Below are positions 1,593-35,809 of a stretch of DNA of 49,953 bases, in pieces. How positions within the stretch are numbered: the stretch's first letter is position 1; each line of letters starts with the position of its first letter. The DNA is from an uncultured Acetobacteraceae bacterium. Its GTDB lineage: Bacteria > Pseudomonadota > Alphaproteobacteria > Acetobacterales > Acetobacteraceae. The position numbers and the translations under genes are program-made. The stretch lies in contig CAYSTX010000002.1 in assembly GCA_964434035.1 (NCBI GenBank), positions 1-49,953 of the forward strand. The letters run 5' to 3'. The notes under the pieces were generated by a model that saw nothing but the letters and a program-made list of their open reading frames with translations, searched no databases and was not told the origin of the DNA.

Positions 1593-2414
1593 TCAGCAGC
1601 GTTTCGGTACTGGGGCGAGGCTCGTCATCTCGCCGTCCATCGTGAAATTGCCGAAGTTCATCGCGAGATCATCGGCGACGCCATTCGCCCAGTAACGCAT
1701 GCTGACCTCGTAATCCGGCGTCTGGCCCTTCGGACCCGGATCGAAGAACGCGAGATGCACGCGCGCACTCGGCAGCGGCGACAGCAGCGGGTACGTCGTC
1801 GCCTCCGGTGGCGCCCATTTCAGCACAACGATCGAGCTGTCCTGCACGCCCGTATCGGTCGTGCCGTCGAACAGCGGTAGCGCGATGAACTTTTTGCCCT
1901 CGGCCGCCGCCGCGATCAGCGCCTCTGTATGCGCCATCGGGAACAGCGTGCCCGGTGGCAGCGGGACCGTCGAATCGTGCGGCTGATCGTAGTGGACGCT
2001 GCCGCCCTTGTCGGGTCCGTCGAGATGCGCCTGCCCGTCGATTTCGCTGGTCACCGCCTCCTCGGTCGTCTGTTTCAGATGAAACCGGAACGAGCGGCCG
2101 TCCTTCGCCTCCCACGTCGCGTAGTCGGAAACCATCTGAACCGGCTGGCCCTGATTGTTGGTGACCGTCATGTCGAGCCGCTGACGGGTCGCCCAGCCGT
2201 CGCAGCTATCCTCGACCTCGTAGGCCATCGTCCCGGTCGCCGACATCACGTCGCCGGAATGCTGCGGGTCGAGCTTCAGCGTGTAGATGGCCCGGTGCGC
2301 CGCCATCCCCGGCAGGGCGGCCGGGTCGGCTGCTTGCGCGACCCCGGTCGCGGCGCCGGCAAGCGAGAAGACAACGGCGCCGACAACGGTCAGGGCGGCT
2401 GGGACAAGGCGCAT
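1593..2414 (-). CDS. DUF1849 / EipB-like periplasmic envelope-integrity protein
   Basis: Signal peptide MRLVPAALTVVGAVVFSLAGAATGVAQA. There are two Cys, one in EDSCDGW and one as the last residue, as in EipB-type proteins. Start placed at the internal Met (2414). Confidence 0.7.
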   Translation of the reverse strand: MRLVPAALTVVGAVVFSLAGAATGVAQAADPAALPGMAAHRAIYTLKLDPQHSGDVMSATGTMAYEVEDSCDGWATRQRLDMTVTNNQGQPVQMVSDYATWEAKDGRSFRFHLKQTTEEAVTSEIDGQAHLDGPDKGGSVHYDQPHDSTVPLPPGTLFPMAHTEALIAAAAEGKKFIALPLFDGTTDTGVQDSSIVVLKWAPPEATTYPLLSPLPSARVHLAFFDPGPKGQTPDYEVSMRYWANGVADDLAMNFGNFTMDGEMTSLAPVPKRC

Positions 2415-2776
2415 GTGGCTGGAACTCCTACTCGACGGCGGATGGGTCATCAGTACGTAAGCCGGGTCGGCCAATCTATCAGGCCGCCACGATCACGTAG
2501 CGTAGCGGAAAGTAACCGTCCGCACGCTGCGCCTGCTCGGACTCGCCCGCCTTGATGACCTGCGATCGGGAACGCCAAGGACGATGGGGATTGCAGTTCC
2601 CGCAAGGTTTCCAATAGTTAACGATCTGCTGCGCGCCTGAGCGGCGCAATCGACTTGCCCAAATTTAATCGAGATTACGGATCTACGGTTGTATTGCACG
2701 GCCGGTTCCTTCCATAATCACGTTCACGTCACCAGCTGACCGCGACGCGAAGCTGCGGCGACGACTGAACCCAGCA

Positions 2777-18728: not shown

Positions 18729-18816
18729 TTGAAACGTCCTGATCGGTGATTTGTGGGTCGGGCGTTTAGACGAGCGGGCTTTCGGCCACAAGCCCGGGCG
18801 GAGTAAGCCTCCGCCC

Positions 18817-20703
18817 ATGAGTCTCCTTACGATCGACGACCTGACGGTGCGGATCGGTGGCCGCACGCTGATCGACGGCGCATCACTCGCAATCGAGGCA
18901 GGCAAGCGCGTCGGCCTTGTCGGCCGCAACGGTGCCGGCAAATCGACGCTACTCCGCGTGATCGCGGGTGATCTCGCGGCTGATGGCGGCACAAGCCGGC
19001 TCGCCGCGCGTGCGACCATGGCCGTTGTGCGGCAGGAAGCGCCATCCGGACCGACGTCGCTGCTGGAGACCGTGCTGCAGGGCGATCAGGAACGGCTGCG
19101 GTTGCTCGCCGCCATCGAGACGGCGCCGCCCGAGCAGCTTGCCGAGCTGCACGAGCGGCTACGCGCGATCGACGCCGACGCCGCCCCGTCCCGCGCGGCC
19201 GCGATCCTCGCCGGGCTCGGCTTTGACGAGGCGGCACAAGGGCGGCCAGTCGCCGATTTCTCGGGCGGTTGGCGTATGCGTGTGGCGCTCGCGACCGCGC
19301 TGTTCGCCAACCCGGACCTGCTGCTGCTCGACGAGCCGACGAACCACCTCGATCTCGAGGCGACGATCTGGCTCGAGGGCTGGCTCGCGCGGTTTCCCGG
19401 TGCGGCCCTGATCGTCTCGCACGATCGCGGCCTGCTCGATCGCGCGGTCGAACAGATCGCGCATCTCGATCGCGGCCGACTGACGCTGACGCAGGGCGGG
19501 TTCGAGACGTTCGTCCGCATCCGCGCCGAACACGCAATGCAGCAGGCGCGCGCGGCCGAGCGCGTGGCGGCGACGCGGGCGCATATGCAAGCCTTCGTTG
19601 ACCGCTTCCGCGCGAAAGCGACCAAGGCGCGGCAGGCGCAAGCGCGGCTGAAGGCACTCGCGCGGCTGCCCGAGATCGAGGCAGTCGTCGAAGACGCGCC
19701 GACGCGCTTCGCGTTCCCCGAGCCGCAGCAATTGGCGCCGCCGATCATCGCGCTCGACCGTGTTGCCGTGGGTTACGACGAAAAGCCAGTGCTGCGCGGC
19801 CTGTCGCTTGGCATCGACACGGACGACCGCATTGCGCTGCTCGGCCCGAACGGACGCGGCAAATCTACGTTCGCGAAGCTCCTCGCCGGCCGTCTCGAGC
19901 CGCTGACGGGGGACGTCCGCCGCGCGCCGCGCCTGCGCGTCGGCTATTTCGCGCAGCATCAGTCGGAAGAGCTCGTTCTCGCCGACAGCCCGATCGACCA
20001 CATGGCACGCGCCCTGCCCCGCGCCACGCCAACGGCGGTGCGGGCGCAGCTCGCGCGGTTCGGGCTCGACGCTGACCGCGCCGAGACGCCGGTCGGGCAG
20101 CTCTCGGGCGGGGAGCGGGCGCGGCTGCTGCTGGCGCTCGCGACGCGGGAGGCGCCGAACCTGCTGATTCTGGACGAGCCGACAAACCATCTCGACATCG
20201 ACGCGCGCGACGCACTCGTGCGGGCACTGGCGGATTTTGCGGGGGCCGTGCTGCTCATCAGCCACGACCCGCACCTCGTCTCGCTGGTCGCAGACCGGCT
20301 CTGGCTCGTCGGCGACGGGACGGTGCGGTCGTTCGACGGCGACCTCGACGATTACCGCGCCACCCTTGCCGGAGGCGGCCCGCGCCCGGTGGCGGCCGCT
20401 GGCCGGCCGGCCGACGCCGCGCCGCGCCGCCGCGACGACCGGCGGGACCGAGCGGCCGCGCGGGCGGAAACCGCGCCGCTCCGCCGTGCTGTACGCGACG
20501 CCGAGGCCGCGATTGCCCAGCTCACCGCCGAGCGCTCGAAGATCGAGGCGCAACTCGCTGATCCGACAGTATATTCGCCGGGCGCGAAGGTGATCGACAT
20601 CGCCGCCGCGCGTGCGCGTCTCGCCGCGATTTCGCGTGAGACGGAGGCGGCCGAGACCGCGTGGCTCGCCGCGTCGGAGGCGCTGGAGCAAGCGGCCGAT
20701 TGA
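18817..20703 (+). CDS. ABC-F family ATPase (two ABC domains, no TM domain)
   Basis: Walker [10 protein letters not shown] and GPNGRGKST, signatures FSGGWRMR and LSGGERAR, and a C-terminal coiled tail. Confidence 0.9.
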
Positions 20704-25050: not shown

Positions 25051-27072
25051 ATGGCGGATGATGTCGTCCCCGTCAAAACCGACCAACCGGCTCCCACCAC
25101 GGCGCGCCGCCGGCCCGTCTGGCCCTGGGTTGTCGGCGCGATCGGCCTTGCCCTGCTGGCACTGATCCTGCTGTGGGACTGGGATTGGTTCATCCCGCTC
25201 GTCCAGCGGCAGGCTTCCGCGAGCCTGGGCCGCCCCGTCACCATTGCGCATCTGCATCTCCGCCCCGGCCGCATCACCGAGGTCACGGCGGATGACGTGC
25301 GGATCGCCAATCCGGAGGGCTTTCCGCAGGATCAGGATTTTGCCCGGATCGCCCGCCTGAGAGTCGATGCCAACATGGCCGCCTTACTGCGTACCCGCCA
25401 GATCGTACTGCCGCTGATCGTCCTGGACCGCCTCGTAATTAACGCGACCGCCCTGCCGGATGGCCGCAATAACTGGGCCCTGGCCACCAGCACCGGAAAC
25501 GGCGGCGGCGCCCCGCCCAGGATCGGCACGCTGCGCATCAGCGACGGCCACGCGCATGTGATCTACCCCAGGCTCCGCGCCGATTTCGCCCTGGCCATCG
25601 CCACCCGCCACGGCGCATCGAGCCACGACGATCAGATCGTCGTCGATGCCGACGGCACCTATGCCGGGCAGCCCGTGACGGGACGCTTCATCGGCGGCGC
25701 GCTGCTGTCGCTCCGGGATCCGTCCCGCCCGTATCCGGTCGATCTGCATCTGGCCAATGGCCCGACAAAGCTCGGGCTCGTCGGCACGGTGCAGGATCCG
25801 ATGAAATTCGCCGGGGCCGATCTGCGCCTGACCGCCTCGGGCCCGGACATGTCCCTGCTCTATCCGCTGACCGGCGTGCCGATCCCGCAAACCCCGCCTT
25901 TCACCCTCAACGGCAAGCTGGATTACGCCGACCGCAAAATCCGCTTCAGCCATTTCCAAGGCCGCATGGGCTCCAGCGACCTAGATGGCGAGGTGGATGT
26001 GGACCCGACGGGAGAGCGCCCGGTGGTGCAGGGCGACGTCACCTCCCACCGGGTCAACCTGGTGGATCTCGGCGGCTTCATCGGCGCCCGACCCGGCCCC
26101 CAGGCACCGCCGCCACCCGCACAGGCCCGCGACCGGCTGCTGCCGACCACGCCGATCAACATGCCGAAGCTGCGCGCGGCGGACATGCATATCCGTTATA
26201 ACGGCGAACATATCGAGGGCCGCTCCATCCCCCTCGACTCCCTCCATACCGTGCTCGACGTCGTGGACGGCCACGTCAACGTGCATCCCCTCGATTTCGC
26301 GGTCGGCACCGGGCGGATCGCCAGCGCCGTGGAACTCACGCCGCAGGGCGATCAGCTCCGCGCCAAGGCGCATGTCGACTTCAGCCGGCTGGACCTCGCC
26401 CGCATCATGCAGGCCACCCACACATTCCAGGGCATGGGCACGATCGGCGGCCGCGCCGAGATCGAAACGGTCGGCAACTCCGTTTCCACCTTCATGGGGA
26501 ACGGCAACGGCGAACTGAAGCTCGCGATGGTCGATGGCGGCGCAGTCAGCGCGCTGCTCATAGACTTGGCCGGGCTGCAGTTCGGCAACAGCCTGCTCGC
26601 GGCACTCGGCCTGCCCAATCAGACCCCGGTGCGCTGCTTCGTGACGGACATCGCGCTTGAGCAGGGAATCGCACGGACGAAGGTTCTGCTGCTCGACACC
26701 GGCGAGGCACGGACCCTCGGCGAGGGCACCATCAACTTCCGTGACGAAACCCTGGACTACACGCTGACGACCCGCGCCAAGCATTTCACCATCGGCTCCC
26801 TGCCAGGACCGGTCCACATTGGCGGGCACCTCGTCGATCCGACCATCCTGCCGGGCGCCGAGACCGCGGCGCGAGCCGGCGCCGCCGCCGGACTCGGCGC
26901 CCTGCTGACACCGCTCGGCGCCTTGTTGCCGACGATCCAGTTCGGAATCGGCGAGGATAACGCCTGCACAGGGGCCATCAATGAGGTGCGGCGCCCCATT
27001 GAGGTGCCATCACCCCGCGCGGGCGGGACCAAACGCACCGGGCAAGGCCGGGCCGTGCCGAGTCACCGCTGA
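25051..27072 (+). CDS. AsmA-family envelope protein
   Basis: 673 aa. N-terminal TM anchor followed by LGRPVTIAHLHLRPGRITEVTADDVRIANP, typical of AsmA-family proteins. Confidence 0.8.
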   Translation: MADDVVPVKTDQPAPTTARRRPVWPWVVGAIGLALLALILLWDWDWFIPLVQRQASASLGRPVTIAHLHLRPGRITEVTADDVRIANPEGFPQDQDFARIARLRVDANMAALLRTRQIVLPLIVLDRLVINATALPDGRNNWALATSTGNGGGAPPRIGTLRISDGHAHVIYPRLRADFALAIATRHGASSHDDQIVVDADGTYAGQPVTGRFIGGALLSLRDPSRPYPVDLHLANGPTKLGLVGTVQDPMKFAGADLRLTASGPDMSLLYPLTGVPIPQTPPFTLNGKLDYADRKIRFSHFQGRMGSSDLDGEVDVDPTGERPVVQGDVTSHRVNLVDLGGFIGARPGPQAPPPPAQARDRLLPTTPINMPKLRAADMHIRYNGEHIEGRSIPLDSLHTVLDVVDGHVNVHPLDFAVGTGRIASAVELTPQGDQLRAKAHVDFSRLDLARIMQATHTFQGMGTIGGRAEIETVGNSVSTFMGNGNGELKLAMVDGGAVSALLIDLAGLQFGNSLLAALGLPNQTPVRCFVTDIALEQGIARTKVLLLDTGEARTLGEGTINFRDETLDYTLTTRAKHFTIGSLPGPVHIGGHLVDPTILPGAETAARAGAAAGLGALLTPLGALLPTIQFGIGEDNACTGAINEVRRPIEVPSPRAGGTKRTGQGRAVPSHR

Positions 27073-28088: not shown

Positions 28089-28192
28089 CGCTTAGCGTTC
28101 GCGGCCGAGCCAGAGCACCTGATCGATCCGCGACGCGCCCGATGCAATCATGGCCAACCGATCGAACCCGAGCGCGATGCCGGCCGCAGGCG
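28089..28192. repeat. Right copy of the ~105-bp direct repeat (the functional 3' end of epmA)
   Basis: See 27345-27449. The repeat starts 3 nt beyond the epmA stop codon and covers its last ~33 codons. Confidence 0.8.
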
Positions 28193-29114
28193 GCATCCCA
28201 TGCGCGAGGGCCGCAAGAAAATCCTCGTCGAGCGGCCAGTCGCCATCCGAGCCATACAGTGCTCGCCGCCGCGCCCGATCGTGCAGAAACCGCGCGCGCT
28301 GCTCCGCCGCGTCGGTCAACTCGACGAAGGCGTTGGCAAGCTCGATCCCGCAAACGAACAGCTCGAACCGCTCGGCGACGCGCGGGTCCGCCGGGTCGCG
28401 TCGGGCCAGCGCCGCCTGTGACGCGGGCCAGTGTGTCAGCGCGGTCGGGCGCGCGCGGCCGATTTCGGGCTCGATCCGGCCGAGCAGCAGGCGGAAAAAC
28501 AGGTCTTCCCAGTCCTCCCCATCCCGCAACGCGACCCCGGCAGTATCGGCGAGCGCCTGCGCGTCCCCCTCGGTCGCCAGCACGTCCGGAACCCCAGCGA
28601 AGCGTGAAAACGCGTCCGCCACTGTCAGCCGCTCAACGGCCGACACATCGGTCGTAACGCCGCGACAGGTGACGACCGGCGGCAGGACGGCGCGGAGCAG
28701 CGCGTGCGTCTCGTCGATCAAATCGTCCATGGAAAAGGCGGGACGATACCATTCCAACATCGTGAACTCCGGCGCGTGCAGCTCGCTCCCCTCGCCGTTC
28801 CGCCAGACGCGGGCGAGCTGAAAGATCGGGCCGGCACCCGCGACCAACAGCCGCTTCATCGCGAACTCGGGGCTCGTGTGCAGCCAAAGCGGCACGCGGG
28901 CGCCGTCGGGAGCGATCTGCTCGGTCGCGAACGCCCGCAGATGCACCTCCTCCCCCGGCGCCGGCACCGCATACGGCGTCTCGACCTCCATCACCCCGCG
29001 CGCCGCAAAGAAGGCGCGGGTCGCCGCGACTAGCAGCGCCCGCCGGCGCAGATAGGGCAGCCGCGCGGCGAAGCGGTCAGGGTGCCAGTCGGGGGGTGCG
29101 TCGGGTTGCGGCAT
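28092..29114 (-). CDS. epmA: EF-P--(R)-beta-lysine ligase (PoxA/GenX)
   Basis: Truncated class II LysRS-like protein: RGVMEVETP...TSPEFAMKRLL...FQLARVWRNGE...EFTMLEWY...GIALGFDRL. Start at ATG 29114 inferred by comparison with remembered E. coli EpmA. Confidence 0.8.
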   Translation of the reverse strand: MPQPDAPPDWHPDRFAARLPYLRRRALLVAATRAFFAARGVMEVETPYAVPAPGEEVHLRAFATEQIAPDGARVPLWLHTSPEFAMKRLLVAGAGPIFQLARVWRNGEGSELHAPEFTMLEWYRPAFSMDDLIDETHALLRAVLPPVVTCRGVTTDVSAVERLTVADAFSRFAGVPDVLATEGDAQALADTAGVALRDGEDWEDLFFRLLLGRIEPEIGRARPTALTHWPASQAALARRDPADPRVAERFELFVCGIELANAFVELTDAAEQRARFLHDRARRRALYGSDGDWPLDEDFLAALAHGMPPAAGIALGFDRLAMIASGASRIDQVLWLGRER

Positions 29115-29142
29115 AACGCCGCCCGGCCTACAGCCGCCGGCC

Positions 29143-30213
29143 ATGGACGACAACGTCGCAACGCTCCGTACGCCGGATGCGCTGATCGAGGCCGGCCTGC
29201 TGCCCGAGACCGAGCGGAAAGCCGCCGACGCGGTGGCCGCCCGCTACGCCATCGCCGTGCCCCCAACGCTCGCCGCCCTAATCGAGCGCGCCGACGACCC
29301 GATCGGCCGCCAGTTCCTGCCGCACGCGGACGAACTCATCACCGCGCCGCACGAAAGCGCCGACCCGATCGCCGACGACGCACTGTCGCCCGTGCGCGGC
29401 ATCGTGCACCGCTACGCCGACCGCGCGCTGCTGAAGCCGCTGCTGATCTGCCCCGTCTATTGCCGCTTCTGCTTCCGCCGCGAACACGTCGGCCCCGATG
29501 GCGGCCTGTTGACCGAGGCCGAGCTAGATGCCGCCTTCGCCTGGATCGCGGCGCATCCGGCGGTGACCGAAATTATCCTGACCGGCGGCGACCCGCTGAT
29601 GCTCTCGCCACGCCGTCTCGGCGGCATCATAACGCGCCTGTCCGCCATTCCGCACATCGCCACCATCCGCGTGCACACTCGCGTGCCGGTGGCGACGCCC
29701 GAGCGCGTGACCGACGCGCTAGCCGACGCGCTGGAGACCGACCGCGCGCTGTTCGTGGCCCTCCATGCGAACCACGCGCTCGAATTCACGCCGGCGGCGC
29801 GGGCCGCGATACGCCGGTTGCAAATGCGCACGATCCCGGTGCTCGGCCAATCGGTGCTGCTCGCGGGCGTCAACGATACCGAGGCGGCGCTGGAGGCGCT
29901 GTTTCGGGCCATGATCGCGGCCCGCGTGAAGCCCTATTACCTGCATCAGCTCGACGCCGCCCCCGGCACCGCGCGCTTTCACGTGCCGGTTGAGACCGGG
30001 CGCCGCCTGCTGTCGGCGCTGCGCGGGCGGGTCACGGGGCTCGCCTGGCCGACCTACGTCGTCGATGTGCCGGGCGGGCACGGCAAGGCGCCGGTTGCAC
30101 CGGACCACTGGCTCGGCAACGGGCGCGTGCGCGACGTCGGCGGCACACCCCGCGCGCTTGCCGAGCCCGCGCCCACGCCGCCCCGGCTTGCCGCTCCTGA
30201 CGCTTCGGTCTAG
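29143..30213 (+). CDS. epmB: EF-P beta-lysylation protein EpmB (lysine 2,3-aminomutase-like radical SAM enzyme)
   Basis: CPVYCRFCFRRE is a CxxxCxxC radical-SAM motif. The gene is divergent from epmA and lies upstream of efp. Confidence 0.85.
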   Translation: MDDNVATLRTPDALIEAGLLPETERKAADAVAARYAIAVPPTLAALIERADDPIGRQFLPHADELITAPHESADPIADDALSPVRGIVHRYADRALLKPLLICPVYCRFCFRREHVGPDGGLLTEAELDAAFAWIAAHPAVTEIILTGGDPLMLSPRRLGGIITRLSAIPHIATIRVHTRVPVATPERVTDALADALETDRALFVALHANHALEFTPAARAAIRRLQMRTIPVLGQSVLLAGVNDTEAALEALFRAMIAARVKPYYLHQLDAAPGTARFHVPVETGRRLLSALRGRVTGLAWPTYVVDVPGGHGKAPVAPDHWLGNGRVRDVGGTPRALAEPAPTPPRLAAPDASV

Positions 30214-30250
30214 AAGCCCGGACCTCCCCGAGAAACCCGGAATTGAATCG

Positions 30251-30817
30251 ATGAAGCAGCAGGCAAACCTGATCCGTGCTGGCCAAGTGATTGAGCATGA
30301 AGGCCGTCGTTGGACGGTGCTCAAGCAACAGATCATCACGCCCGGCAAAGGTGGCGCTTTCATCCAGGTCGAAATGCGCGACCTCAAGACCGGCAACAAG
30401 ACGAATGAGCGCTGGCGCACCGCCGATACCGTCGAGCGCCTGATGACCGACAACAAGGAATACACGTACAGCTACACCGACGGCGACAACATGGTCCTGA
30501 TGGACGGCGAGACGTTCGAACAGACGCTCGTGCCGCTCGCGCTGCTTGGCGATGCCGCACCGTTCCTTCAGGACAACATGACGATCGAGGTCGATCTGGT
30601 GGAGGGCGAGCCGGTCGCCGTGCACCTGCCGCCGCAGGCGACGCTCGAGGTGGTTGAGGCCGACCCGGTGACGAAGGGCCAGACGGTCTCCAGCTCCTAC
30701 AAGCCCGCCAAGCTCTCCAACGGCGTGAAGTGCATGGTCCCGCCGTTCATCGAGGTCGGTGAGCGCATTGTCGTGCGGACCGAGGACTCGACCTATGTGG
30801 AGCGAGCAAAGAACTGA
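30251..30817 (+). CDS. efp: Elongation factor P
   Basis: 188 aa. MKQQANLIRAGQVIEHEGRRWTVLKQQIITPGKGGAFIQVEMRDLKTG includes the modifiable Lys in the PGKG loop. Confidence 0.95.
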   Translation: MKQQANLIRAGQVIEHEGRRWTVLKQQIITPGKGGAFIQVEMRDLKTGNKTNERWRTADTVERLMTDNKEYTYSYTDGDNMVLMDGETFEQTLVPLALLGDAAPFLQDNMTIEVDLVEGEPVAVHLPPQATLEVVEADPVTKGQTVSSSYKPAKLSNGVKCMVPPFIEVGERIVVRTEDSTYVERAKN

Positions 30818-30841
30818 GCCGGTAGCGGCGGACAGACGCGC

Positions 30842-31684
30842 ATGGCGCTTCGTCTCTCGCCGACCATGACGATCATGCAGAACGCCGCGCAACGTGCGGC
30901 GAAGCGCCTATTGCGGGATTTTAACGAGGTCGAGCAGCTTCAGGTCAGCGTCAAGGGACCGAGCGACTTCGTGAGCCAGGCCGACCTGCGCGCCGAGCAG
31001 AGCCTGCGCGAGGATCTGACGAAGGCGCGGCCGGGCTACGCGTTCCTGATGGAGGAAAGCGGCGCGCACGGGTCGGAGAACTGGTCGTGGCGCTGGGTGA
31101 TCGATCCGCTCGACGGCACCACCAATTTCCTGCACGGCATCCCGCACTGGGCGATCAGCATCGGGCTCGAGAAGCGGCTGGCCGACGGCACGACCGAAAT
31201 CGCGGCCGGCCTGATCTACGCGCCGGCATCCGACGAGATGTTCTGGGCCGAGAAGGGCGTCGGCGCCTTCGTCAACGAACGGCGGCTCCGCGTCTCGGCG
31301 CGGCGGGAGCTGAAGGACGCGGTTTTCGCGACCGGCATCCCGTTCGCGGCGGTTGCGGACACGAACCGGCTTGCATTCGCGCGCACGCTCGGCACGCTGA
31401 TGCCGATGGTCGCCGGCATTCGGCGATTCGGCGCGGCGGCGCTCGATCTCGCATGGGTCGCGGCTGGCCGGTATGACGGGTATTGGGAACTTGGACTGAA
31501 GCCGTGGGACATGGTGGCGGGTACGCTGATCGTGCGTGAAGCAGGCGGATACGCGACGACACCGACCGGGGCCGACCCGCGGGAAAGCGGCGACGTGGTC
31601 GCGGCTAATACGCATCTGCATGCGGCGCTTTCCCGCATGGTCGCCGAAGGACAGGACGCGGCGCGCGCCCGCTCCGGTTCATGA
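30842..31684 (+). CDS. suhB: Inositol monophosphatase family protein (SuhB)
   Basis: FLMEESG...WVIDPLDGTTNFLHG...WDMVAG. Confidence 0.85.
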   Translation: MALRLSPTMTIMQNAAQRAAKRLLRDFNEVEQLQVSVKGPSDFVSQADLRAEQSLREDLTKARPGYAFLMEESGAHGSENWSWRWVIDPLDGTTNFLHGIPHWAISIGLEKRLADGTTEIAAGLIYAPASDEMFWAEKGVGAFVNERRLRVSARRELKDAVFATGIPFAAVADTNRLAFARTLGTLMPMVAGIRRFGAAALDLAWVAAGRYDGYWELGLKPWDMVAGTLIVREAGGYATTPTGADPRESGDVVAANTHLHAALSRMVAEGQDAARARSGS

Positions 31685-32616
31685 CGCGGGCAATGGATCG
31701 CATACTCGCGGGCCTTCTGGGTTTCGCGCTGATCGCGGCGCCCGGGCCAGTATTGGCGCAGGTGACGGTCGACCTGCATGCGCTCGACGCGCCGTCCGCC
31801 GGCAGCGGCACGACGGAACGGCCCGTGCGGAAACCGGCGGCCCGGCATCAAACGAGACGAGCGGTCACTCATACGCCGGCACGCACCCAGCAGTCGGAGA
31901 CGCCCAAGACCGAGCCGGCCGCGCCGAAGCACGAGACGCCGGCGCCGGTGACGGCCGCGCCGACGGCCCCGTCCGCTCCGGCCCCATCCGCGTCCGCCGC
32001 CGCCAAGCCGGCCGCCGCGCCCCCGCCAGCCGCAACCCTGCCCTCCGCGCCACCGCCCGAGGTGTCACTGACGCCCAACGCGCCGCCCATCCCCGCACCG
32101 GCCGTTCCGGCGCCCGTGCCGTCCGCCGCCGCGCTGCCGTCTTCAACCGCGACGCCGACCGCCGGTGGGCTCCGCGTCAACTTCCCGCCGGGCGAGAGCA
32201 CGGTCGGGCCCGACAGCGCCGCCGCGCTGAAGCATCTCGCTTCCGCCGCGAAGGCGAAGGGCGCCAGCGCCTCGTTTAACGTCGTCGCCTACGCCCCAGG
32301 CTCGCCGTCCGACCCGTCGACGGCGCGGAGGCTGTCGTTGTCGCGGGCTCTCGCGGTCCGCGCGTCGCTCATCGCGGCGGGCGTGGACGGGGCTAACATC
32401 TATGTGCGCGCACTCGGTGAACCGCCCGCCAGCGCGCCGGGAGGCGCGGACCGCGCCGACATCACCGTGCTCGGCGCCAACATCGCCGCGCCGGCCGCCG
32501 CCACGCAGCCTCCCGCCGCGCCCGCACCGTCCGCATCCGCGCCACCGGCCCCGGCCGAACCGCCGCTGACGCCGTCGCGCCCGCCGACAACGCCCCCGCC
32601 GGCTCCCGCGCGATGA
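31681..32616 (+). CDS. Secreted Pro/Ala-rich protein with a degenerate OmpA-like peptidoglycan-binding domain
   Basis: Signal peptide ILAGLLGFALIAAPGPVLAQ, then a ~130-aa P/A/T-rich linker. The OmpA-like core is VNFPPGESTV...FNVVAYAPGSPSDPSTARRLSLSRALAVRASLIAAGV...IYVRALGE. ATGA overlap with suhB. Confidence 0.65.
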   Translation: MTRAMDRILAGLLGFALIAAPGPVLAQVTVDLHALDAPSAGSGTTERPVRKPAARHQTRRAVTHTPARTQQSETPKTEPAAPKHETPAPVTAAPTAPSAPAPSASAAAKPAAAPPPAATLPSAPPPEVSLTPNAPPIPAPAVPAPVPSAAALPSSTATPTAGGLRVNFPPGESTVGPDSAAALKHLASAAKAKGASASFNVVAYAPGSPSDPSTARRLSLSRALAVRASLIAAGVDGANIYVRALGEPPASAPGGADRADITVLGANIAAPAAATQPPAAPAPSASAPPAPAEPPLTPSRPPTTPPPAPAR

Positions 32617-33776
32617 CCAATCCCGGCGGCTACCTGCTGCGGATGCTCGTGTTTCTGGTCGCTGTCGCGGCCGTCGCCGGGCTTCTCTCGCCGGTGCTGC
32701 TGGTTGCGTTCCACAACAATCCCATCCTGAACAGCTTCATCCTGACGGTGCTGGTCATCGGTATCGCCTGGAACCTCTTTCAGGTACGTCGGCTGCGGCC
32801 CGAGGTTGCGTGGCTCGAGACCTGGCAGCAGGCGCGCACCCGCCTCGCCGCCCTGCCTTCGCCACGCCTGCTCGCGCCGATGGCAAACATGCTTGCCGCG
32901 CGCGAGGGCCGTGGCCGCGACGGTGAGCATCGTATCACGCTGTCCACGACCGCGATGCGCACCCTGCTCGACGGCATCGCCTCCCGCCTCGATGAGAGCC
33001 GGGAGCTGTCGCGCTACATGACCGGGTTGATGATTTTTCTCGGCCTGCTCGGCACGTTCTGGGGCCTGCTGAAAACCGTCGCGGCGGTCGGCGACGTCAT
33101 CAACGACATGACGGTCGGCTCGGGCGACGTCTCGGCGATGTTCGCGCAGCTGAAGGGCGGGCTCGTGCAGCCTCTCAAGGGCATGGGCACGGCGTTTTCG
33201 GCGTCGATGTTCGGCCTCGCTGGCGCGCTCGTGCTCGGCTTCCTCGACCTTACGGCCGGGCAGGCGCAAAATCGCTTCTTCAACGAGCTGGAAGAATGGC
33301 TCGCTGGGCTCACTCGCCTTTCCTCCGGTGCGATCGCCGAGGGCGACGGGTCGATCCCGGTCTATGTGCAAGCGCTGCTCGAACAGACGGCCGAGAACAT
33401 GGAGGCGCTGCAACGCGTTATGTCGCGCGGGGAGGAAAGCCGGACGGCCGCCAATACCGCCGTGGTCGGGCTGACGGAACGCATCGCGAGCCTCTCCGAC
33501 ACGATGCGCGCGAACCAGCAATTGATGCTACGCATCGCCGAGATGCAGGCGCAGCTCGGCCCCGCGCTGCAAAAGCTGACCGACCAGCGGCCTCGGCATG
33601 ATGGCGGCGGCTTCGATGAAGCGACTCGCGTCCACCTGCGGTCGATCGAGATGCTGCTGACGCGCCTGCTCGCTGAGACCGAACAGGGCCGCGTGCAGAG
33701 CACGGCCGAGCTTCGCAACGACATCCGTATCCTGACCCGCACAGTAGCGGCGCTCGCCGAGGAGGCGCCACGCTGA
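32613..33776 (+). CDS. MotA/TolQ/ExbB-family proton-channel protein with a ~165-aa helical C-terminal tail
   Basis: Four predicted TM helices. GLLGTFWGLLKTV and GMGTAFSASMFGLAGALVLGFLD are channel signatures. ATGA overlap upstream and TGATG overlap downstream. Confidence 0.8.
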   Translation: MTNPGGYLLRMLVFLVAVAAVAGLLSPVLLVAFHNNPILNSFILTVLVIGIAWNLFQVRRLRPEVAWLETWQQARTRLAALPSPRLLAPMANMLAAREGRGRDGEHRITLSTTAMRTLLDGIASRLDESRELSRYMTGLMIFLGLLGTFWGLLKTVAAVGDVINDMTVGSGDVSAMFAQLKGGLVQPLKGMGTAFSASMFGLAGALVLGFLDLTAGQAQNRFFNELEEWLAGLTRLSSGAIAEGDGSIPVYVQALLEQTAENMEALQRVMSRGEESRTAANTAVVGLTERIASLSDTMRANQQLMLRIAEMQAQLGPALQKLTDQRPRHDGGGFDEATRVHLRSIEMLLTRLLAETEQGRVQSTAELRNDIRILTRTVAALAEEAPR

Positions 33777-35056
33777 TGGCGCTTCGCCGACGCGGTGGCG
33801 GCGGGAACGGGCTGGACGCATGGCCGGGCTACGTCGACGCGCTCTCGACGCTGCTCATGGTCATCATCTTCGTGCTGCTGGTGTTCGTGCTGGCGCAGGC
33901 GTTCCTGTCCGTGGCGCTGTCCGGTCGTGACCGCGCGCTCGATCAGGCGAACCAGCAGCTCGCCGAGTTGTCCGACATGCTCTCGCTGGAACGCGGGCGC
34001 ACCGCCGACCTGACGCTGTCGGTCGCGACGCTCAGCAAGCAGTTGCAGACGGCCACGTCCGCTCGCGACAGCCTGACCTCGCAGCTCGCCGCCGCGCAGG
34101 CCGCCGCAGCCGCGTCCGCCACGCAGGTCACGCAGCTTCAGGCGGCGCTTGCCGCCGGCACGACGCGGGCGGAGACGGCCGAGCAGCAGGCCAAATCGCT
34201 CGCCGCCGCGCTCGCCGAACGCGACGCGACGATCAAGGCCGACCGCGCGACGATCGAGGCGCGGCTGTCCGATCTCGCGCGGCTGACCGAGCAGACGAAG
34301 GCGCTGACGGCACTCCGGGACGAATTGCAAAAACAGGCCGCCGACGCCGCCGCGCGCGCGACCACCGAAGCCGAACGGCGCGCCGCGACGGAGAAGATGC
34401 TTTCGGACGAAAAGAACCTCGGCGACAGCGCGCGGGCACAGATCGCGCTCCTGAACGCACAGGTCGCGCAGCTTCGCGCGCAGCTCGGGCAATTGTCGAA
34501 GGATCTGAACCTCGCGCAATCGGCGATGAGCGACAAGGACACGCAGATTGCCAATCTCGGGCAGCGGCTGAACGCGGCGCTCGCGTCGAAGGTCGAGGAA
34601 TTGCAGCAGTATCGGAGCGAATTCTTCGGCAAGCTCCGCGCCCTGCTCGCCGGCCGCCCGGGGATCAGCATCGTCGGCGACCGTTTCGTGTTTCAGAGCG
34701 AGGTGCTGTTTCCGGTCGGCAGCGCCGAGCTGACGCCGGCCGGCGTGGACCAGATCAACGCGCTCGCGACCACGATCAAGCAGATCGCGTCCGAAATTCC
34801 ACCCAACCTGCCCTGGGTCATGCGCATCGACGGCCATGCGGACCGCCAACCCGTGAGCGGCGGCGCTTTCGCGAGCAACTGGGAGCTATCGGCCGAACGT
34901 GCGATCAACGTGGTGAAGCTGCTCGTCATCGAGGGAGTGCCGCCCGAGCACCTCGCCGCCGCGGCGTTCTCCGAATATCAGCCGATCGACACCGCTGACA
35001 CGCCCGCCGCGTTCGCTAAGAACCGCCGTATCGAACTGCGTCTGACGGACCGCTAG
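33776..35056 (+). CDS. MotB-type membrane anchor with a long coiled coil and a C-terminal OmpA/MotB peptidoglycan-binding domain
   Basis: WPGYVDALSTLLMVIIFVLLVF is a TM helix with Asp, as in MotB YADFMT. About 230 aa of A/Q/L/T-rich repeats follow. The C-terminus carries FVFQSEVLFPVGSAELTP...IDGHAD...NWELSAERA...NRRIELRL. Confidence 0.8.
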   Translation: MALRRRGGGGNGLDAWPGYVDALSTLLMVIIFVLLVFVLAQAFLSVALSGRDRALDQANQQLAELSDMLSLERGRTADLTLSVATLSKQLQTATSARDSLTSQLAAAQAAAAASATQVTQLQAALAAGTTRAETAEQQAKSLAAALAERDATIKADRATIEARLSDLARLTEQTKALTALRDELQKQAADAAARATTEAERRAATEKMLSDEKNLGDSARAQIALLNAQVAQLRAQLGQLSKDLNLAQSAMSDKDTQIANLGQRLNAALASKVEELQQYRSEFFGKLRALLAGRPGISIVGDRFVFQSEVLFPVGSAELTPAGVDQINALATTIKQIASEIPPNLPWVMRIDGHADRQPVSGGAFASNWELSAERAINVVKLLVIEGVPPEHLAAAAFSEYQPIDTADTPAAFAKNRRIELRLTDR

Positions 35057-35071
35057 CCCGCAAGCACGGCC

Positions 35072-35809
35072 TCAGAACAGCGGACGTGTCTTGGTGTGCA
35101 CGGGCCCGATCCGAGCGAGCATCGCGAGCGCGGGCTCATCGAGAGATGACAGTTTCCCGCCCGACAGCTCCAGCAGCTTCCGCTTCCTTATCACCTGCAG
35201 CGTCCGGTTGACGTGAACAATTGAGAGGCCGAGCGCGTCCGCAATGTGGGTCTGTGTCAACGGGAAGGCGAGTGCGCCGTTTGTAACCATCCCGAGCTGT
35301 TCCGACCGCCGCCAGAGCAGCAGGATGAGGGCTGCCGTCCGCTCGAGCGCAGTGCGCCGCCCGACCGACAGCAGGCCCTCATCGACGATGTGTTCCTCGA
35401 CTGCCGACAGCCATGTGAGATCGAACGCAAGGTCCGGGAAGTGCTTGAAAATCTCCCACACCCGGTCGCGCGAAAAAGCGCAGAGCCGCACATCCGTCAG
35501 CGCCTCGATCCCGTGCGTTGCCGCATCGAATAGTTTCGCCTGTAATCCGATGAGATCGCCCGGCAGCAACACGTTGAGGATCTGACGCCGACCGCCCGGT
35601 AGCGTCTTGAAACGGAACGCCCAACCGTTTAGCAGCGTAAACAGCCGATCCGCCTTATCGCCCTCGCGCAGAATGATCGAGCCGGCGGGCGCCACCGCCT
35701 CACCGACCTTCAGATTTTGGATGAAATCAATCTCGGCATCCGTATTCGAACGAAATGCCTCGCGATTGCGTAACGGACAGAAACGACAGGGGACGACTTG
35801 AATCATCAT
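35072..35809 (-). CDS. Crp/Fnr-family transcriptional regulator
   Basis: cNMP-binding-like beta-roll (ILREGDKADRLFTLLNGWAFRFK) and C-terminal HTH THIADALGLSIVHVNRTLQVI. N-terminal PCRFCP. Start at the MM pair (35809). Many T/A-ending codons. Confidence 0.8.
   Translation of the reverse strand: MMIQVVPCRFCPLRNREAFRSNTDAEIDFIQNLKVGEAVAPAGSIILREGDKADRLFTLLNGWAFRFKTLPGGRRQILNVLLPGDLIGLQAKLFDAATHGIEALTDVRLCAFSRDRVWEIFKHFPDLAFDLTWLSAVEEHIVDEGLLSVGRRTALERTAALILLLWRRSEQLGMVTNGALAFPLTQTHIADALGLSIVHVNRTLQVIRKRKLLELSGGKLSSLDEPALAMLARIGPVHTKTRPLF

What the first reader, a model, noticed from the sequence alone, without database searches (positions are those of the whole stretch)
31681..35056. Orphan stator-like module: OmpA-domain protein, MotA/ExbB channel with helical tail, and coiled-coil MotB-type PG anchor
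Seen in sequence: three ORFs are chained to suhB and to each other by overlaps (ATGA 31681-84, ATGA 32613-16, TGATG 33774-78), which argues for co-translation. Gene 2 has four predicted TM helices and the channel signatures GLLGTFWGL and GTAFSASMFGLAGALVLG. It also has a ~165-aa helical cytoplasmic tail that, as far as I recall, canonical MotA, TolQ and ExbB lack. Gene 3 has the MotB-type TM helix with an Asp (YVDALSTLL, compare MotB YADFMT). It then has ~230 aa of A/Q/L/T-rich coiled coil before an OmpA/MotB peptidoglycan-binding domain (NWELSAERA, NRRIELRL). Gene 1 is a secreted Pro/Ala-rich protein with a second, degenerate OmpA-like domain. Established knowledge: MotAB, PomAB, ExbBD, TolQR, AglRQS, GldLM and ZorAB are ion-driven 5:2 motors, each tied to a specific partner set. 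None of those partners (fliG/fliM, tolA/tolB/pal, tonB/exbD, zorC/D/E) is in this 50-kb window. Inference: this is an uncharacterised ion-driven, PG-anchored envelope motor or tether. The periplasmic coiled coil could span or gauge the periplasm. The function is unknown.
Basis: partly seen in the sequence, partly recalled or inferred. Interest (0 to 1): 0.7.

Follow-up and report, generated by a model that had tools for sequence, protein, structure and literature searches.

The report
Non-flagellar stator-like envelope motor operon
Three overlapping genes encode a widespread but mechanistically unexplained relative of the proton-driven MotAB/ExbBD/ZorAB membrane motors, fixed to the cell wall by a long rigid stalk and carrying a conserved tail inside the cell; its counterpart in a non-flagellated vinegar bacterium changes cell length when over-produced.

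Summary
ORFs g1 (31681-32616), g2 (32613-33776) and g3 (33776-35056) overlap suhB and each other exactly as described.

- **g2** has four TM helices. It belongs to the MotA/ExbB/TolQ superfamily, closest to ZorA, ExbB and TolQ rather than flagellar MotA. It has a conserved 172-aa cytoplasmic helical tail.
- **g3** is a MotB-type subunit. Its TM Asp21 is invariant in 74 of 74 orthologues and its OmpA-type peptidoglycan-binding motifs are canonical.
- **g3 stalk** keeps one heptad phase throughout. Its length varies more than three-fold between species, almost always in whole heptads.
- **g1** is a secreted Pro/Ala-rich protein with a degenerate OmpA-like domain. It lies upstream of g2 in 66 of 80 related loci.

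The g2-g3 pair is vertically inherited next to efp-suhB across Acetobacterales, Rhodospirillales and Sinorhizobium. No flagellar, Tol, Ton or Zorya partners lie in the window.

It is not wholly unstudied. It is orthologous to the "motA/motB" genes of non-flagellated Komagataeibacter hansenii. Overexpression there elongates or chains cells, and disruption mutants were obtained.

I read it as a new architectural variant of the 5:2 ion-driven motors. The output partner and physiological role remain unknown.

The parts
30842..31684 (+). suhB (inositol monophosphatase family). It is the upstream gene, and its stop overlaps the g1 start (ATGA).
   Evidence: Pfam Inositol_P at 213.6 bits. Overlap checked. 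efp-suhB lies upstream of g2 in most related loci.
31681..32616 (+). g1: secreted Pro/Ala-rich protein with a degenerate OmpA-like domain. Signal peptide is aa 1-26 (31681-31758). OmpA-like domain is aa 168-247 (32182-32421).
   Evidence: Pfam OmpA at 36.4 bits, above the 27.2 cutoff. A g1-like ORF lies directly upstream of g2 in 66 of 80 loci. Orthologues keep RRxSLxRA but lack the GHxD Asp and NRR.
32613..33257 (+). g2 membrane core (aa 1-215). It has four TM helices and an A-subunit fold like ExbB, TolQ and ZorA. Channel motifs are GLLGTFWGL (33042-33068) and PLxGMGTAFSxS.
   Evidence: Hydropathy. Pfam MotA_ExbB scores 18.6 bits for this protein (cutoff 22.9), but 36 of 44 family members match at E<=0.01. 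All 44 match PADLOC ZorA models. The top 45 Foldseek PDB hits are all ExbB, ZorA or TolQ. Invariant residues are G144, G147, T148, G151, L152, P187, M191, F195, G201 and L202.
33258..33776 (+). g2 cytoplasmic tail (aa 216-387, plus stop codon). It is a conserved helical hairpin, H251-324 plus H336-383.
   Evidence: AF2 model with pLDDT of about 65-75 in the tail helices. The tail is conserved down to about 33% overall identity. The module is tandemly duplicated in 580-614-aa family members.
33776..33919 (+). g3 N-terminus and single TM helix. The invariant Asp21 codon is at 33836-33838, within the motif WPG[YF]VD.
   Evidence: Asp is present in 74 of 74 aligned orthologues. W, P, G, V, D and Q41 are invariant or nearly invariant.
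33920..34645 (+). g3 periplasmic coiled-coil stalk (aa ~49-290).
   Evidence: The heptad register is constant across residues 49-270. The Asp-to-GDRF spacing is an exact multiple of 7 in 57 of 72 orthologues, and 7n+4 in 8 more, over a range of 182-553 residues.
34706..35056 (+). g3 OmpA/MotB-type peptidoglycan-binding domain (aa 311-417), the rest of the protein, and the stop codon.
   Evidence: Pfam OmpA at 53.4 bits. NCBIfam NF006543 (PRK09039.1-2) at 487.5 bits, above the 305 cutoff. The best PDB sequence matches are MotB and PomB C-terminal domains. GH[AT]D, NWELSxxRA and NRRIE are invariant or nearly invariant in 75 sequences.

Best explanation
g2 and g3 encode the two subunits of a non-flagellar, ion-driven motor of the MotAB/ExbBD/TolQR/ZorAB kind. 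It is probably an A5B2 complex.

**Shown:**
- g2 has the ExbB/TolQ/ZorA-type channel core and motifs.
- g3 has a single TM helix with an invariant Asp and a canonical peptidoglycan-binding domain.
- The two genes are translationally overlapped and co-inherited.

**Inferred mechanism:**
- A g3 dimer forms a continuous parallel coiled-coil rod. In this genome it is about 250 residues, or roughly 35-38 nm if straight.
- The OmpA-like heads at the end of the rod fix it to the sacculus.
- Protons passing Asp21 drive the g2 pentamer to rotate around the fixed g3 TM helices.
- The mechanical output is delivered in the cytoplasm by the conserved helical tail bundle of g2, as proposed for ZorA. The partner is not yet identified.
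- g1 is a periplasmic paralogue of the g3 head that has lost key peptidoglycan-binding residues. It probably modulates or caps the g3 head in Acetobacterales and Rhodospirillales.

**Physiological role (weakest step):** housekeeping envelope or cell-division function rather than motility or phage defence. This rests on core-genome synteny and on the cell-length and chaining phenotypes of the Komagataeibacter orthologues.
For: **Superfamily and closest relatives.**
- Pfam MotA_ExbB matches 36 of 44 family members, best E=1e-8.
- PADLOC ZorA models match 44 of 44, best E=1e-15.
- The top 45 Foldseek PDB hits are all ExbB, ZorA or TolQ, with probability about 0.9-1.0. ZorA 8vvn has the highest identity at 21%. 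PomA scores only 0.2-0.4.
- ZorA 8vvn aligns LGVIGTFMGL and AFLTSVWGVA to the g2 motifs.

**B subunit.**
- Asp21 is invariant in 74 of 74 orthologues.
- The peptidoglycan-binding motifs are invariant or nearly invariant.
- The MotB and PomB C-terminal domains are the best PDB sequence hits.

**Coupling and inheritance.**
- ATGA and TGATG overlaps link the genes.
- g2-g3 are adjacent in 77 of 80 loci; the exceptions have little or no downstream sequence. They are also adjacent in Sinorhizobium and Nitrococcus.
- Both genes are present though unlinked in L083.

**Rigid stalk.** The heptad register is constant, and indels come in whole heptads or stutters.

**Tail as functional output.** It is conserved at about 33% overall identity, helical and modularly duplicated in long variants.

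**Non-flagellar, non-defence.**
- The orthologue is present, with the same epmA-epmB-efp-suhB-g1-g2-g3 order, in Komagataeibacter/Novacetimonas hansenii. PMC6570709 and PMC6315621 report that this organism has no flagellar genes.
- No phage or plasmid association was found.
- No Zor, Tol, Ton or Fli genes are in the window.

**Phenotype.** Overexpression gives elongated or chained cells and more colony spreading. Disruption mutants were obtained and gave denser cellulose (PMC6570709, PMC7347698).
Against: - No experiment shows ion flow, rotation or 5:2 stoichiometry, and no multimer model could be run here.
- The window protein itself falls below Pfam's MotA_ExbB gathering score (18.6 against 22.9).
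- Foldseek E-values are weak (about 3e-3) and TM-scores are low, because the monomer model is extended.
- g3 has no Pfam MotB_plug hit. A profile of its TM region finds no MotB, ZorB or ExbD chain in the PDB.
- The published phenotypes come from plasmid overexpression and may be unspecific membrane-protein stress.
- The polar GFP foci include a C-terminal, hence periplasmic, GFP fusion to MotB. Such a fusion should not fluoresce if correctly exported, so the foci may be aggregates.
- A rod of 27-80 nm cannot stand perpendicular in a periplasm of about 30 nm, so the geometry is unresolved.
- No cytoplasmic partner is known.
Confidence: 0.6

Rival explanations
1. Envelope-surveillance signalling device, a housekeeping counterpart of Zorya ZorAB. 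The long g3 stalk reports the state or distance of the sacculus. Engagement with peptidoglycan gates ion flow. Rotation of the g2 tail then recruits or activates a cytoplasmic factor encoded elsewhere, for example an envelope-stress or division regulator.
For: - ZorA is the closest HMM relative, matching 44 of 44 members. It is also the only relevant PDB sequence hit (8vvn).
- Like ZorA, g2 carries a conserved cytoplasmic helical tail. The tail can be lengthened by module duplication.
- The g3 head is a canonical peptidoglycan binder.
- In S. meliloti a ChvI-bound DNA fragment lies inside SMc03993 (PMC3687685). By gene numbering relative to rgsF = SMc03995, that gene is probably the g2 orthologue.
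Against: - No effector gene is linked in any locus examined.
- The tail is 172 aa, against roughly 500 aa in ZorA as I recall.
- The identification of SMc03993 with g2 is inferred, not shown.
- No stress or signalling phenotype has been reported.
Confidence: 0.2
2. Tol-Pal-like mechanical system. The motor uses the proton gradient to pull or organise envelope layers at the division site and new poles. The g3 stalk and g1 link the inner membrane, the sacculus and perhaps the outer membrane.
For: - Foldseek matches TolQ and ExbB as well as it matches ZorA.
- Overexpression in K. hansenii gives long cells in chains with visible septa, and polar or bipolar foci. The authors compare this to tolQ/tolR overexpression (PMC6570709).
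- In S. meliloti the pair lies two genes from rgsF, an essential growth-zone and septum protein.
Against: - The B subunit is MotB-type, not ExbD/TolR-type.
- No TolA- or TonB-like anchored transducer is present.
- rgsF adjacency is not seen in the other 85 loci.
- The overexpression phenotype and the GFP foci may be artefacts.
- Disruption mutants were obtained, so the pair appears dispensable in culture (PMC7347698).
Confidence: 0.2
3. Passive inner-membrane-to-peptidoglycan tether or periplasmic scaffold. The channel features are evolutionary relics, and the coiled coil provides structure, like a periplasmic cytoskeleton.
For: - The heptad-perfect coiled coil is very long.
- A g3 homologue has a weak precomputed Pfam hit to the crescentin rod, Rod_CreS.
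- The peptidoglycan-binding head is conserved.
Against: - The TM Asp is invariant (74 of 74), as are the Gly/Thr/Ser channel motifs across more than 40 sequences down to 33% identity. Relics would decay.
- The cytoplasmic tail is conserved, which a tether would not need.
Confidence: 0.1
4. True flagellar stator paralogue, as the NCBI product name 'flagellar motor protein MotA' implies, or the motor of an unknown surface motility.
For: - The four-TM topology matches MotA.
- NCBI names g2 relatives MotA.
- One distant pair lies next to fliK-flgD-flgE, on the opposite strand.
- Overexpression increased colony spreading three-fold in K. hansenii (PMC6570709).
Against: - The pair is conserved in Komagataeibacter, which is reported to have no flagellar or pilus genes (PMC6570709, PMC6315621).
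- By fold and HMM it is closer to ExbB, TolQ and ZorA. PomA has a Foldseek probability of only 0.2-0.4.
- There is no MotB_plug match.
- The neighbourhood is efp-suhB, not flagellar genes, in most of the loci.
- Spreading on soft agar can follow from changes in cell shape or cellulose.
Confidence: 0.04

Closest known systems
Zorya ZorA/ZorB (anti-phage 5:2 motor; e.g. PDB 8vvn, Shewanella type I ZorAB)
   Same: - ZorA models are the best HMM relatives of g2 (E=5e-12 for this protein, 44 of 44 family members).
- 8vvn is the only relevant PDB sequence hit. It is second-ranked in Foldseek and has the highest identity, 21%.
- The A subunit carries a cytoplasmic helical tail.
- The B subunit has a TM Asp and an OmpA-like peptidoglycan-binding domain (ZorB3 model, E=3.5e-22).
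   Different: - No ZorC, D, E, F or G effectors are present.
- The pair is inherited vertically in a housekeeping neighbourhood, not in a defence island. No phage hits were found, and the only hits in the plasmid collection are mislabelled Sinorhizobium/Shinella chromosome-size records.
- The tail is 172 aa, against roughly 500 aa in ZorA as I recall.
- g2 has an extra N-terminal TM helix.
- g3 inserts a 180-550-residue coiled coil between the TM helix and the peptidoglycan-binding domain.
- The HMM match covers only the TM core (ZorA1 profile positions 105-228 of 683).
ExbB-ExbD and TolQ-TolR (Ton and Tol-Pal motors)
   Same: - Most of the Foldseek hits are ExbB or TolQ (5sv0, 9ddo, 9ddn, 8odt, 8vlw), with probability about 0.9-1.0.
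- The GLLGTxxG motif in the penultimate TM helix resembles theirs.
- The function is non-flagellar.
- The overexpression phenotype, elongated and chained cells, resembles that of tolQR (PMC6570709).
   Different: - The B subunit is MotB-type with an OmpA domain, not ExbD/TolR.
- There is no TolA or TonB transducer, and no tolB or pal nearby.
- g2 has four TM helices instead of three.
- g2 has a C-terminal tail.
Flagellar MotA-MotB / PomA-PomB stator
   Same: - The four-TM topology has a cytoplasmic loop between TM2 and TM3.
- The B subunit has an [YF][AV]D-type TM Asp and an OmpA-like C-terminal domain. The best PDB sequence matches to that domain are MotB and PomB.
- The A gene is directly followed by the B gene.
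   Different: - The pair is present in a non-flagellated genus.
- Foldseek ranks PomA far below ExbB and ZorA.
- There is no MotB_plug match.
- A long coiled coil replaces the short MotB linker.
- g2 has a cytoplasmic tail.
- No flagellar genes are in the neighbourhood.
Komagataeibacter (Novacetimonas) hansenii 'MotA' (348 aa) and 'MotB' (321 aa) of Jacek et al. 2018/2019
   Same: - They are orthologues. K. hansenii MotA is 53% identical to g2 over its full length (E=4e-110).
- The gene order is identical: epmA(-)-epmB-efp-suhB-g1-g2-g3.
- The architectures match: four TM helices, and one TM helix plus an OmpA domain.
   Different: - The tail is shorter by about 40 residues and the stalk is shorter.
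- The published work is phenotypic only (overexpression, disruption, GFP). It interprets the genes as motility-related.
- g1, the stalk periodicity and the ZorA/ExbB affinity were not described.
NCBIfam PRK09039 subfamilies (NF006542-NF006546, 'peptidoglycan -binding protein')
   Same: g3 scores 487.5 bits against NF006543, above the 305 cutoff. It is therefore a member of an existing annotation family.
   Different: The family name gives no function. The model does not link the protein to its MotA-like partner.

Membership tests
MotA/ExbB/TolQ superfamily (Pfam PF01618) | HMM match to PF01618 at or above the gathering score | tested here: inconclusive
   The window protein scores 18.6 bits against a cutoff of 22.9. 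However, 36 of 44 diverse family members match at E<=0.01, best 1.1e-8.
MotA/ExbB/TolQ superfamily (Pfam PF01618) | A-subunit fold | tested here: met
   The top 45 Foldseek PDB hits are all ExbB, ZorA or TolQ chains, with probability 0.9-1.0. The model has pLDDT 80-89 in the TM core. E-values are only about 3e-3.
MotA/ExbB/TolQ superfamily (Pfam PF01618) | Conserved polar and Gly motifs in the last two TM helices | tested here: met
   G144, G147, T148, G151, L152, P187, M191, F195, G201 and L202 are invariant, and S196 and S198 are at least 90% conserved, in 44 sequences. The motifs align to ZorA 8vvn.
MotA/ExbB/TolQ superfamily (Pfam PF01618) | Adjacent B-subunit gene with a single TM helix and a conserved acidic residue | tested here: met
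   The TGATG overlap links the genes. Asp21 is invariant in 74 of 74 orthologues. The genes are adjacent in 77 of 80 loci.
MotA/ExbB/TolQ superfamily (Pfam PF01618) | A5B2 stoichiometry and ion-driven rotation | not testable with these tools
   No multimer prediction or experiment was available.
Flagellar stator MotAB/PomAB | Works with a flagellar rotor (FliG), and so occurs only in flagellated organisms | tested here: not met
   The orthologous operon is present in K. hansenii. That organism is reported to lack flagellar genes (PMC6570709, PMC6315621). No fli, flg or mot genes are in the window.
Flagellar stator MotAB/PomAB | MotB plug region (Pfam MotB_plug) after the TM helix | tested here: not met
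   g3 has no MotB_plug hit at E<=1. The coiled coil starts directly after the TM helix.
Flagellar stator MotAB/PomAB | A-subunit fold closest to MotA or PomA | tested here: not met
   PomA chains rank 46th or lower, with probability 0.18-0.38.
Zorya anti-phage system | ZorA and ZorB homologues | tested here: inconclusive
   PADLOC ZorA1 gives E=5e-12, but only over profile positions 105-228 of 683. ZorB3 gives E=3.5e-22 over the OmpA domain.
Zorya anti-phage system | Linked effector genes (ZorC/ZorD, ZorE, or ZorF/ZorG) | tested here: not met
   The neighbours are suhB upstream and a convergent Crp/Fnr regulator downstream. No linked effector-like gene recurs next to the pair in the related loci.
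Zorya anti-phage system | Patchy distribution in defence islands or mobile elements | tested here: not met
   Synteny with efp-suhB is conserved across orders. GC content equals that of the flanks. There are no phage hits.
Ton/Tol systems (ExbBD-TonB, TolQRA-Pal) | ExbD/TolR-type B subunit plus a membrane-anchored TonB or TolA transducer | tested here: not met
   g3 matches OmpA and MotB-type models only. g1 has a cleavable signal peptide rather than a TonB/TolA-type anchor (sequence). No tonB, tolA, tolB or pal gene is in the window.
NCBIfam NF006543 (PRK09039.1-2, peptidoglycan-binding protein) | Score above the curated cutoff | tested here: met
   487.5 bits against a cutoff of 305.

The most novel reading that the evidence does not exclude
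This is a vertically inherited, housekeeping sister of the Zorya ZorAB motor. The heptad-phased g3 stalk couples the state of the sacculus to proton-driven rotation of the g2 pentamer. The cytoplasmic tail of g2 acts as a rotary signal or force transmitter to a core cellular process such as division, polar growth or the envelope-stress response. If so, tail-bearing 5:2 motors would be a general way of passing mechanical information from cell wall to cytoplasm, and not only a defence invention. The whole-heptad length changes of the stalk would be a natural tuning knob.
Probability: 0.2. Interest if true: 0.8.

Novelty: new variant of a known kind. Interest (0 to 1): 0.55.

Why it matters
**Scale of the gap.** Five or six families of 5:2 ion-driven motors have been worked out, and each revealed a new way to use the proton gradient outside the cytoplasm. 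This family is large: about 2,600 clusters at 50% identity, and 8,000 or more sequences. It sits in a housekeeping, vertically inherited neighbourhood in many Alphaproteobacteria, including the acetic acid bacteria, Azospirillum and Sinorhizobium. No mechanism, partner or role has been established.

**Unusual architecture.** It combines a MotB-type cell-wall anchor on a rigid stalk of tunable length with a ZorA-like cytoplasmic tail. That makes it a tractable test of whether tail-bearing stators are general transducers from wall to cytoplasm.

**Applied relevance.** Changing its expression alters cell length and the microstructure of bacterial cellulose in Komagataeibacter.

Tried and rejected
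- **Rgs polar-growth proteins of S. meliloti.** I suspected one of them might be the MotA-like or OmpA-like protein. The paper shows RgsB, C and F are other proteins. Only genomic proximity to rgsF in Sinorhizobium holds, and it does not hold in the other loci.
- **PapS of Rhodospirillum rubrum** (an OmpA-like lipoprotein) is unrelated.
- **First AF2 run.** It used 39 close homologues and gave pLDDT 54, so it was not used. A deeper alignment gave 68.7.
- **PDB profile searches.** The full-length g2 profile was swamped by coiled-coil noise such as apolipoproteins and chemoreceptors. The TM-core-only profile found only ZorA 8vvn, at E=0.29. The g3 TM-region profile found nothing relevant.
- **Exact-sequence look-up** of the window g2 found no record.
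- **Promoter and terminator scan** of 28900-35300 found no sigma-70-like site and no + strand terminator, which is uninformative.
- **Flagellar link.** One distant locus has the pair next to fliK-flgD-flgE. I treated this as coincidence because no other locus shows it.
- **Literature.** Searches for ZorA-like housekeeping homologues, PRK09039 and the SMc03991-4 locus tags found no mechanistic study. Subscription-only work, such as Jacek et al. 2019 in New Biotechnology on the disruption mutants, was seen only through a review.

Full report
**1. The observation**

| Gene | Coordinates | Length |
|---|---|---|
| g1 | 31681-32616 | 311 aa |
| g2 | 32613-33776 | 387 aa |
| g3 | 33776-35056 | 426 aa |

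- All three are on the + strand, directly after suhB (30842-31684; Pfam Inositol_P 213.6 bits).
- The junctions read ATGA, ATGA and TGATG.
- GC content of the region (0.68-0.70) equals that of the flanks.
- g3 is followed 16 bases later by a convergent Crp/Fnr gene, so g3 ends the transcription unit.

**2. g2, the A subunit**

Topology and family:
- Hydropathy gives four TM segments at about residues 8-33, 37-59, 135-159 and 193-215. An Arg-rich loop (60-134) points to an N-in, MotA-like topology with a cytoplasmic tail.
- Pfam MotA_ExbB scores 18.6 bits, below the gathering score of 22.9.
- PADLOC ZorA1 gives E=5e-12.

Size and conservation of the family:
- A full HMMER scan of 1.84 billion representatives found 2589 relatives at E<=1e-3 and 540 at E<=1e-30. 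Most are about 380 aa and match end to end, tail included, down to about 33% identity.
- In an alignment of 44 diverse members, these residues are invariant: N40, G50, W67, G144, G147, T148, G151, L152, P187, M191, F195, G201 and L202.
- Of these 44, 36 hit Pfam MotA_ExbB (best E=1e-8) and all 44 hit ZorA models (best E=1e-15).

Structure:
- An AF2 model from 89 homologues has pLDDT 68.7 overall and 80-89 in the TM core. It shows the tail as a helical hairpin, H251-324 plus H336-383.
- Its 45 best Foldseek matches in the PDB are all ExbB, ZorA (8vvn, 21% identity, the highest) or TolQ chains. PomA comes far behind.
- Against PDB sequences, only ZorA 8vvn is relevant. It aligns LGVIGTFMGL and AFLTSVWGVA to the g2 motifs.
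- Longer family members (580-614 aa) carry two or three tandem copies of the tail module.

Conclusion: g2 is an ExbB/TolQ/ZorA-branch A subunit with an extra N-terminal TM helix and a modular cytoplasmic tail.

**3. g3, the B subunit**

- g3 matches NCBIfam NF006543 (PRK09039.1-2, "peptidoglycan -binding protein") at 487.5 bits, above the 305 cutoff.
- Pfam OmpA matches residues 311-417.
- The best PDB sequence matches are MotB and PomB C-terminal domains.
- In 74 orthologues taken from the related loci, W16, P17, G18, V20 and D21 of the motif WPG[YF]VD are each present in all 74.
- GH[AT]D, NWELSxxRA and NRRIE are invariant or nearly invariant in 75 sequences.
- There is no MotB_plug match.

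The stalk is the feature I find most informative.
- In the window protein the heptad register is constant from about residue 49 to 270.
- Across orthologues, the distance from the TM Asp to the conserved GDRF motif at the start of the OmpA domain ranges from 182 to 553 residues.
- That distance is an exact multiple of 7 in 57 of 72 proteins, and 7n+4 (a classical stutter) in 8 more. This measure uses no alignment.
- An alignment-based count gave 59 of 75 in one residue class, binomial P about 1e-35. Counting each distinct length once gave 27 of 43, P about 4e-13. Shared ancestry inflates these numbers.
- The rule also holds in S. meliloti (196), Nitrococcus (294) and the window (280).

My inference is a continuous parallel coiled-coil rod, in phase with both the TM helix and the head. 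Its length is free to vary (roughly 27-80 nm if straight) but its phase is not. That argues against a fixed periplasmic ruler. It also means the rod cannot stand perpendicular in a normal periplasm.

**4. g1**

- g1 has a typical cleavable signal peptide (VLA|QV).
- Pro/Ala-rich spacers flank an OmpA-like domain (Pfam 36.4 bits against a 27.2 cutoff).
- A profile of this domain finds a homologous ORF directly upstream of g2 in 66 of 80 loci. The same profile also hits the g3 head at 50-70 bits, so the two domains are paralogues.
- g1 orthologues keep RRxSLxRA. They replace the GHxD Asp with Ala and lack NRR. From established work on OmpA-like domains, those residues bind diaminopimelate, so peptidoglycan binding is probably weakened or altered.
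- g1 is absent from the Sinorhizobium, Nitrococcus and several Rhodospirillales loci. It is an accessory to the core pair.

**5. Distribution and context**

The best 80 are Acetobacteraceae, Azospirillum, Nitrospirillum, Defluviicoccus, Kiloniella, Gluconobacter, Acetobacter, Asaia and others.
- g2-g3 are adjacent in 77 of 80 loci, and the three exceptions have little or no downstream sequence. efp-suhB lies upstream in most loci.
- Individual loci:

| Locus | Arrangement |
|---|---|
| S. meliloti (a chromosome filed as a plasmid record) | thiE-rgsF-suhB-g2-g3 |
| A 35%-identical relative | still follows efp-suhB |
| A Nitrococcus MAG | the pair alone |
| One small-genome alphaproteobacterium | the two genes 5 kb apart |

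- There are no hits in phage genomes.
- Pfam scans of the likely genes over the whole window show housekeeping genes only: ppk, ppx, aspS, rnd, hda, purMN, thiE, an AsmA-family gene, epmA, epmB and efp. No Fli, Tol, Ton or Zor components appear.

**6. Prior work**

- A literature search turned up Jacek et al. (PMC6570709, PMC6315621; reviewed in PMC7347698). They studied the only MotA/MotB-like genes of non-flagellated Komagataeibacter hansenii.
- Those genes encode a 348-aa protein with four TM helices and a 321-aa protein with one TM helix and an OmpA domain.
- I confirmed orthology. The 348-aa N. hansenii protein (P0530, accession EFG85642.1 among others) is 53% identical to g2 over its whole length (E=4e-110). 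Its locus reads epmA(-)-epmB-efp-suhB-g1-g2-g3, the same as the window.
- Reported phenotypes:
  - Overexpression gives cells about twice as long, often in chains with septa.
  - Overexpression gives three-fold more colony spreading, and thicker, looser cellulose ribbons.
  - Disruption mutants were obtained and make denser cellulose.
  - GFP fusions form polar foci.
- The authors left the function open.
- Caveats, from my own knowledge:
  - Overexpressing a membrane protein can elongate cells unspecifically.
  - A C-terminal GFP on the B subunit would be periplasmic and should not fluoresce if exported by Sec. The polar foci may therefore be aggregates.

**7. Interpretation**

- **Best supported (confidence about 0.6 for the core):** a non-flagellar, peptidoglycan-anchored, ion-driven A5B2-type motor. 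Its stator element is the g3 rod and its output is the g2 cytoplasmic tail. It has a housekeeping envelope or division role.
- **Shown:** family membership at superfamily level, conservation of the catalytic Asp and channel motifs, a canonical peptidoglycan-binding head, coupling and co-inheritance of the genes, and non-flagellar, non-defence context.
- **Inferred:** stoichiometry, rotation, which part moves, and the physiological role.
- **Rivals:**
  - a ZorAB-like surveillance or signalling device without a linked effector;
  - a Tol-like mechanical role at septum and poles;
  - a passive tether, disfavoured by the invariant Asp and motifs;
  - a real flagellar or motility stator, disfavoured by its presence in a non-flagellate and by the fold ranking.

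**8. Comparison and novelty**

- It works like a MotAB/ZorAB-type stator, but it fails the defining tests for each named system:
  - no rotor and no plug (flagellar);
  - no effectors and no island-like distribution (Zorya);
  - no ExbD/TolR-type B subunit and no TolA or TonB (Tol, Ton).
- g3 is a member of an existing, function-less annotation family (PRK09039). The pair has a phenotypic literature in one genus.
- I therefore rate it a new variant of a known kind, not categorically new and not already explained.
- Interest is 0.55:
  - It is a large, conserved, tractable family whose architecture combines a MotB-type anchor, a phase-locked stalk of variable length and a ZorA-like tail.
  - Many uncharacterised stator homologues are already known to exist (PMC12505986).
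  - Nothing here yet identifies the output.

Noticed in passing
g3 orthologues in L001-L087; window 33920-34645: The coiled-coil stalk of g3 changes length between species almost only in whole heptads. The Asp-to-GDRF spacing is 7n in 57 of 72 proteins and 7n+4 in 8 more, over a range of 182-553 residues.
   Followed up: yes
P0291, P0122, P0148 (g2 relatives of 580-614 aa): Some family members carry two or three tandem copies of the cytoplasmic tail module. P0148 repeats an LAHLRxLDQxxRQLVxLTEARP-like unit about six times. Tail length is therefore evolvable, as in ZorA.
   Followed up: partly
L086 (S. meliloti CP090106.1, labelled 'plasmid pSymB' but 3.7 Mb): In Sinorhizobium the g2-g3 pair follows suhB and lies two genes from rgsF (SMc03995), an essential growth-zone protein. 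A ChvI-bound DNA fragment was reported inside SMc03993 (PMC3687685), which by numbering is probably g2. The record appears to be a chromosome mislabelled as a plasmid.
   Followed up: partly
L081/L082 3303-7087 and 8001-10171: In one distant lineage the g2-g3 pair lies next to fliK-flgD-flgE, transcribed divergently. This was seen in no other locus.
   Followed up: no
L084 and L083: L084 has efp-suhB-g2 but no adjacent g3. L083 has g2 and a g3 homologue 5 kb apart on opposite strands. The pair can therefore be unlinked in some, possibly reduced, genomes.
   Followed up: partly
window 28092-30817: epmA (PoxA-like, - strand), epmB (lysine 2,3-aminomutase-like) and efp are clustered. That is a complete EF-P beta-lysylation set immediately upstream of suhB. 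The same order occurs in K. hansenii and many Acetobacteraceae loci.
   Followed up: partly
window 1593-2474 (-) and 25051-27072 (+): Two other envelope-related genes are in the window. One is an EipB-like protein (Pfam EipB_like, 249.8 bits). The other is an AsmA-family protein (128 bits), which lies between thiE and epmA.
   Followed up: no
window 20419-20499 (-): ARAGORN calls a tRNA-Gly(TCC) on the minus strand. It lies inside the 3' part of the ABC-F ATPase ORF (18751-20703, +). Either the ORF is shorter than listed or the tRNA call is spurious.
   Followed up: no
database annotations of g2 relatives: Public names for this family are inconsistent and probably misleading. NCBI calls it 'flagellar motor protein MotA', JGI 'methyl-accepting chemotaxis protein', and other records 'UPF0136' or 'hypothetical'. 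The chemoreceptor label probably comes from the helical-hairpin tail.
   Followed up: partly
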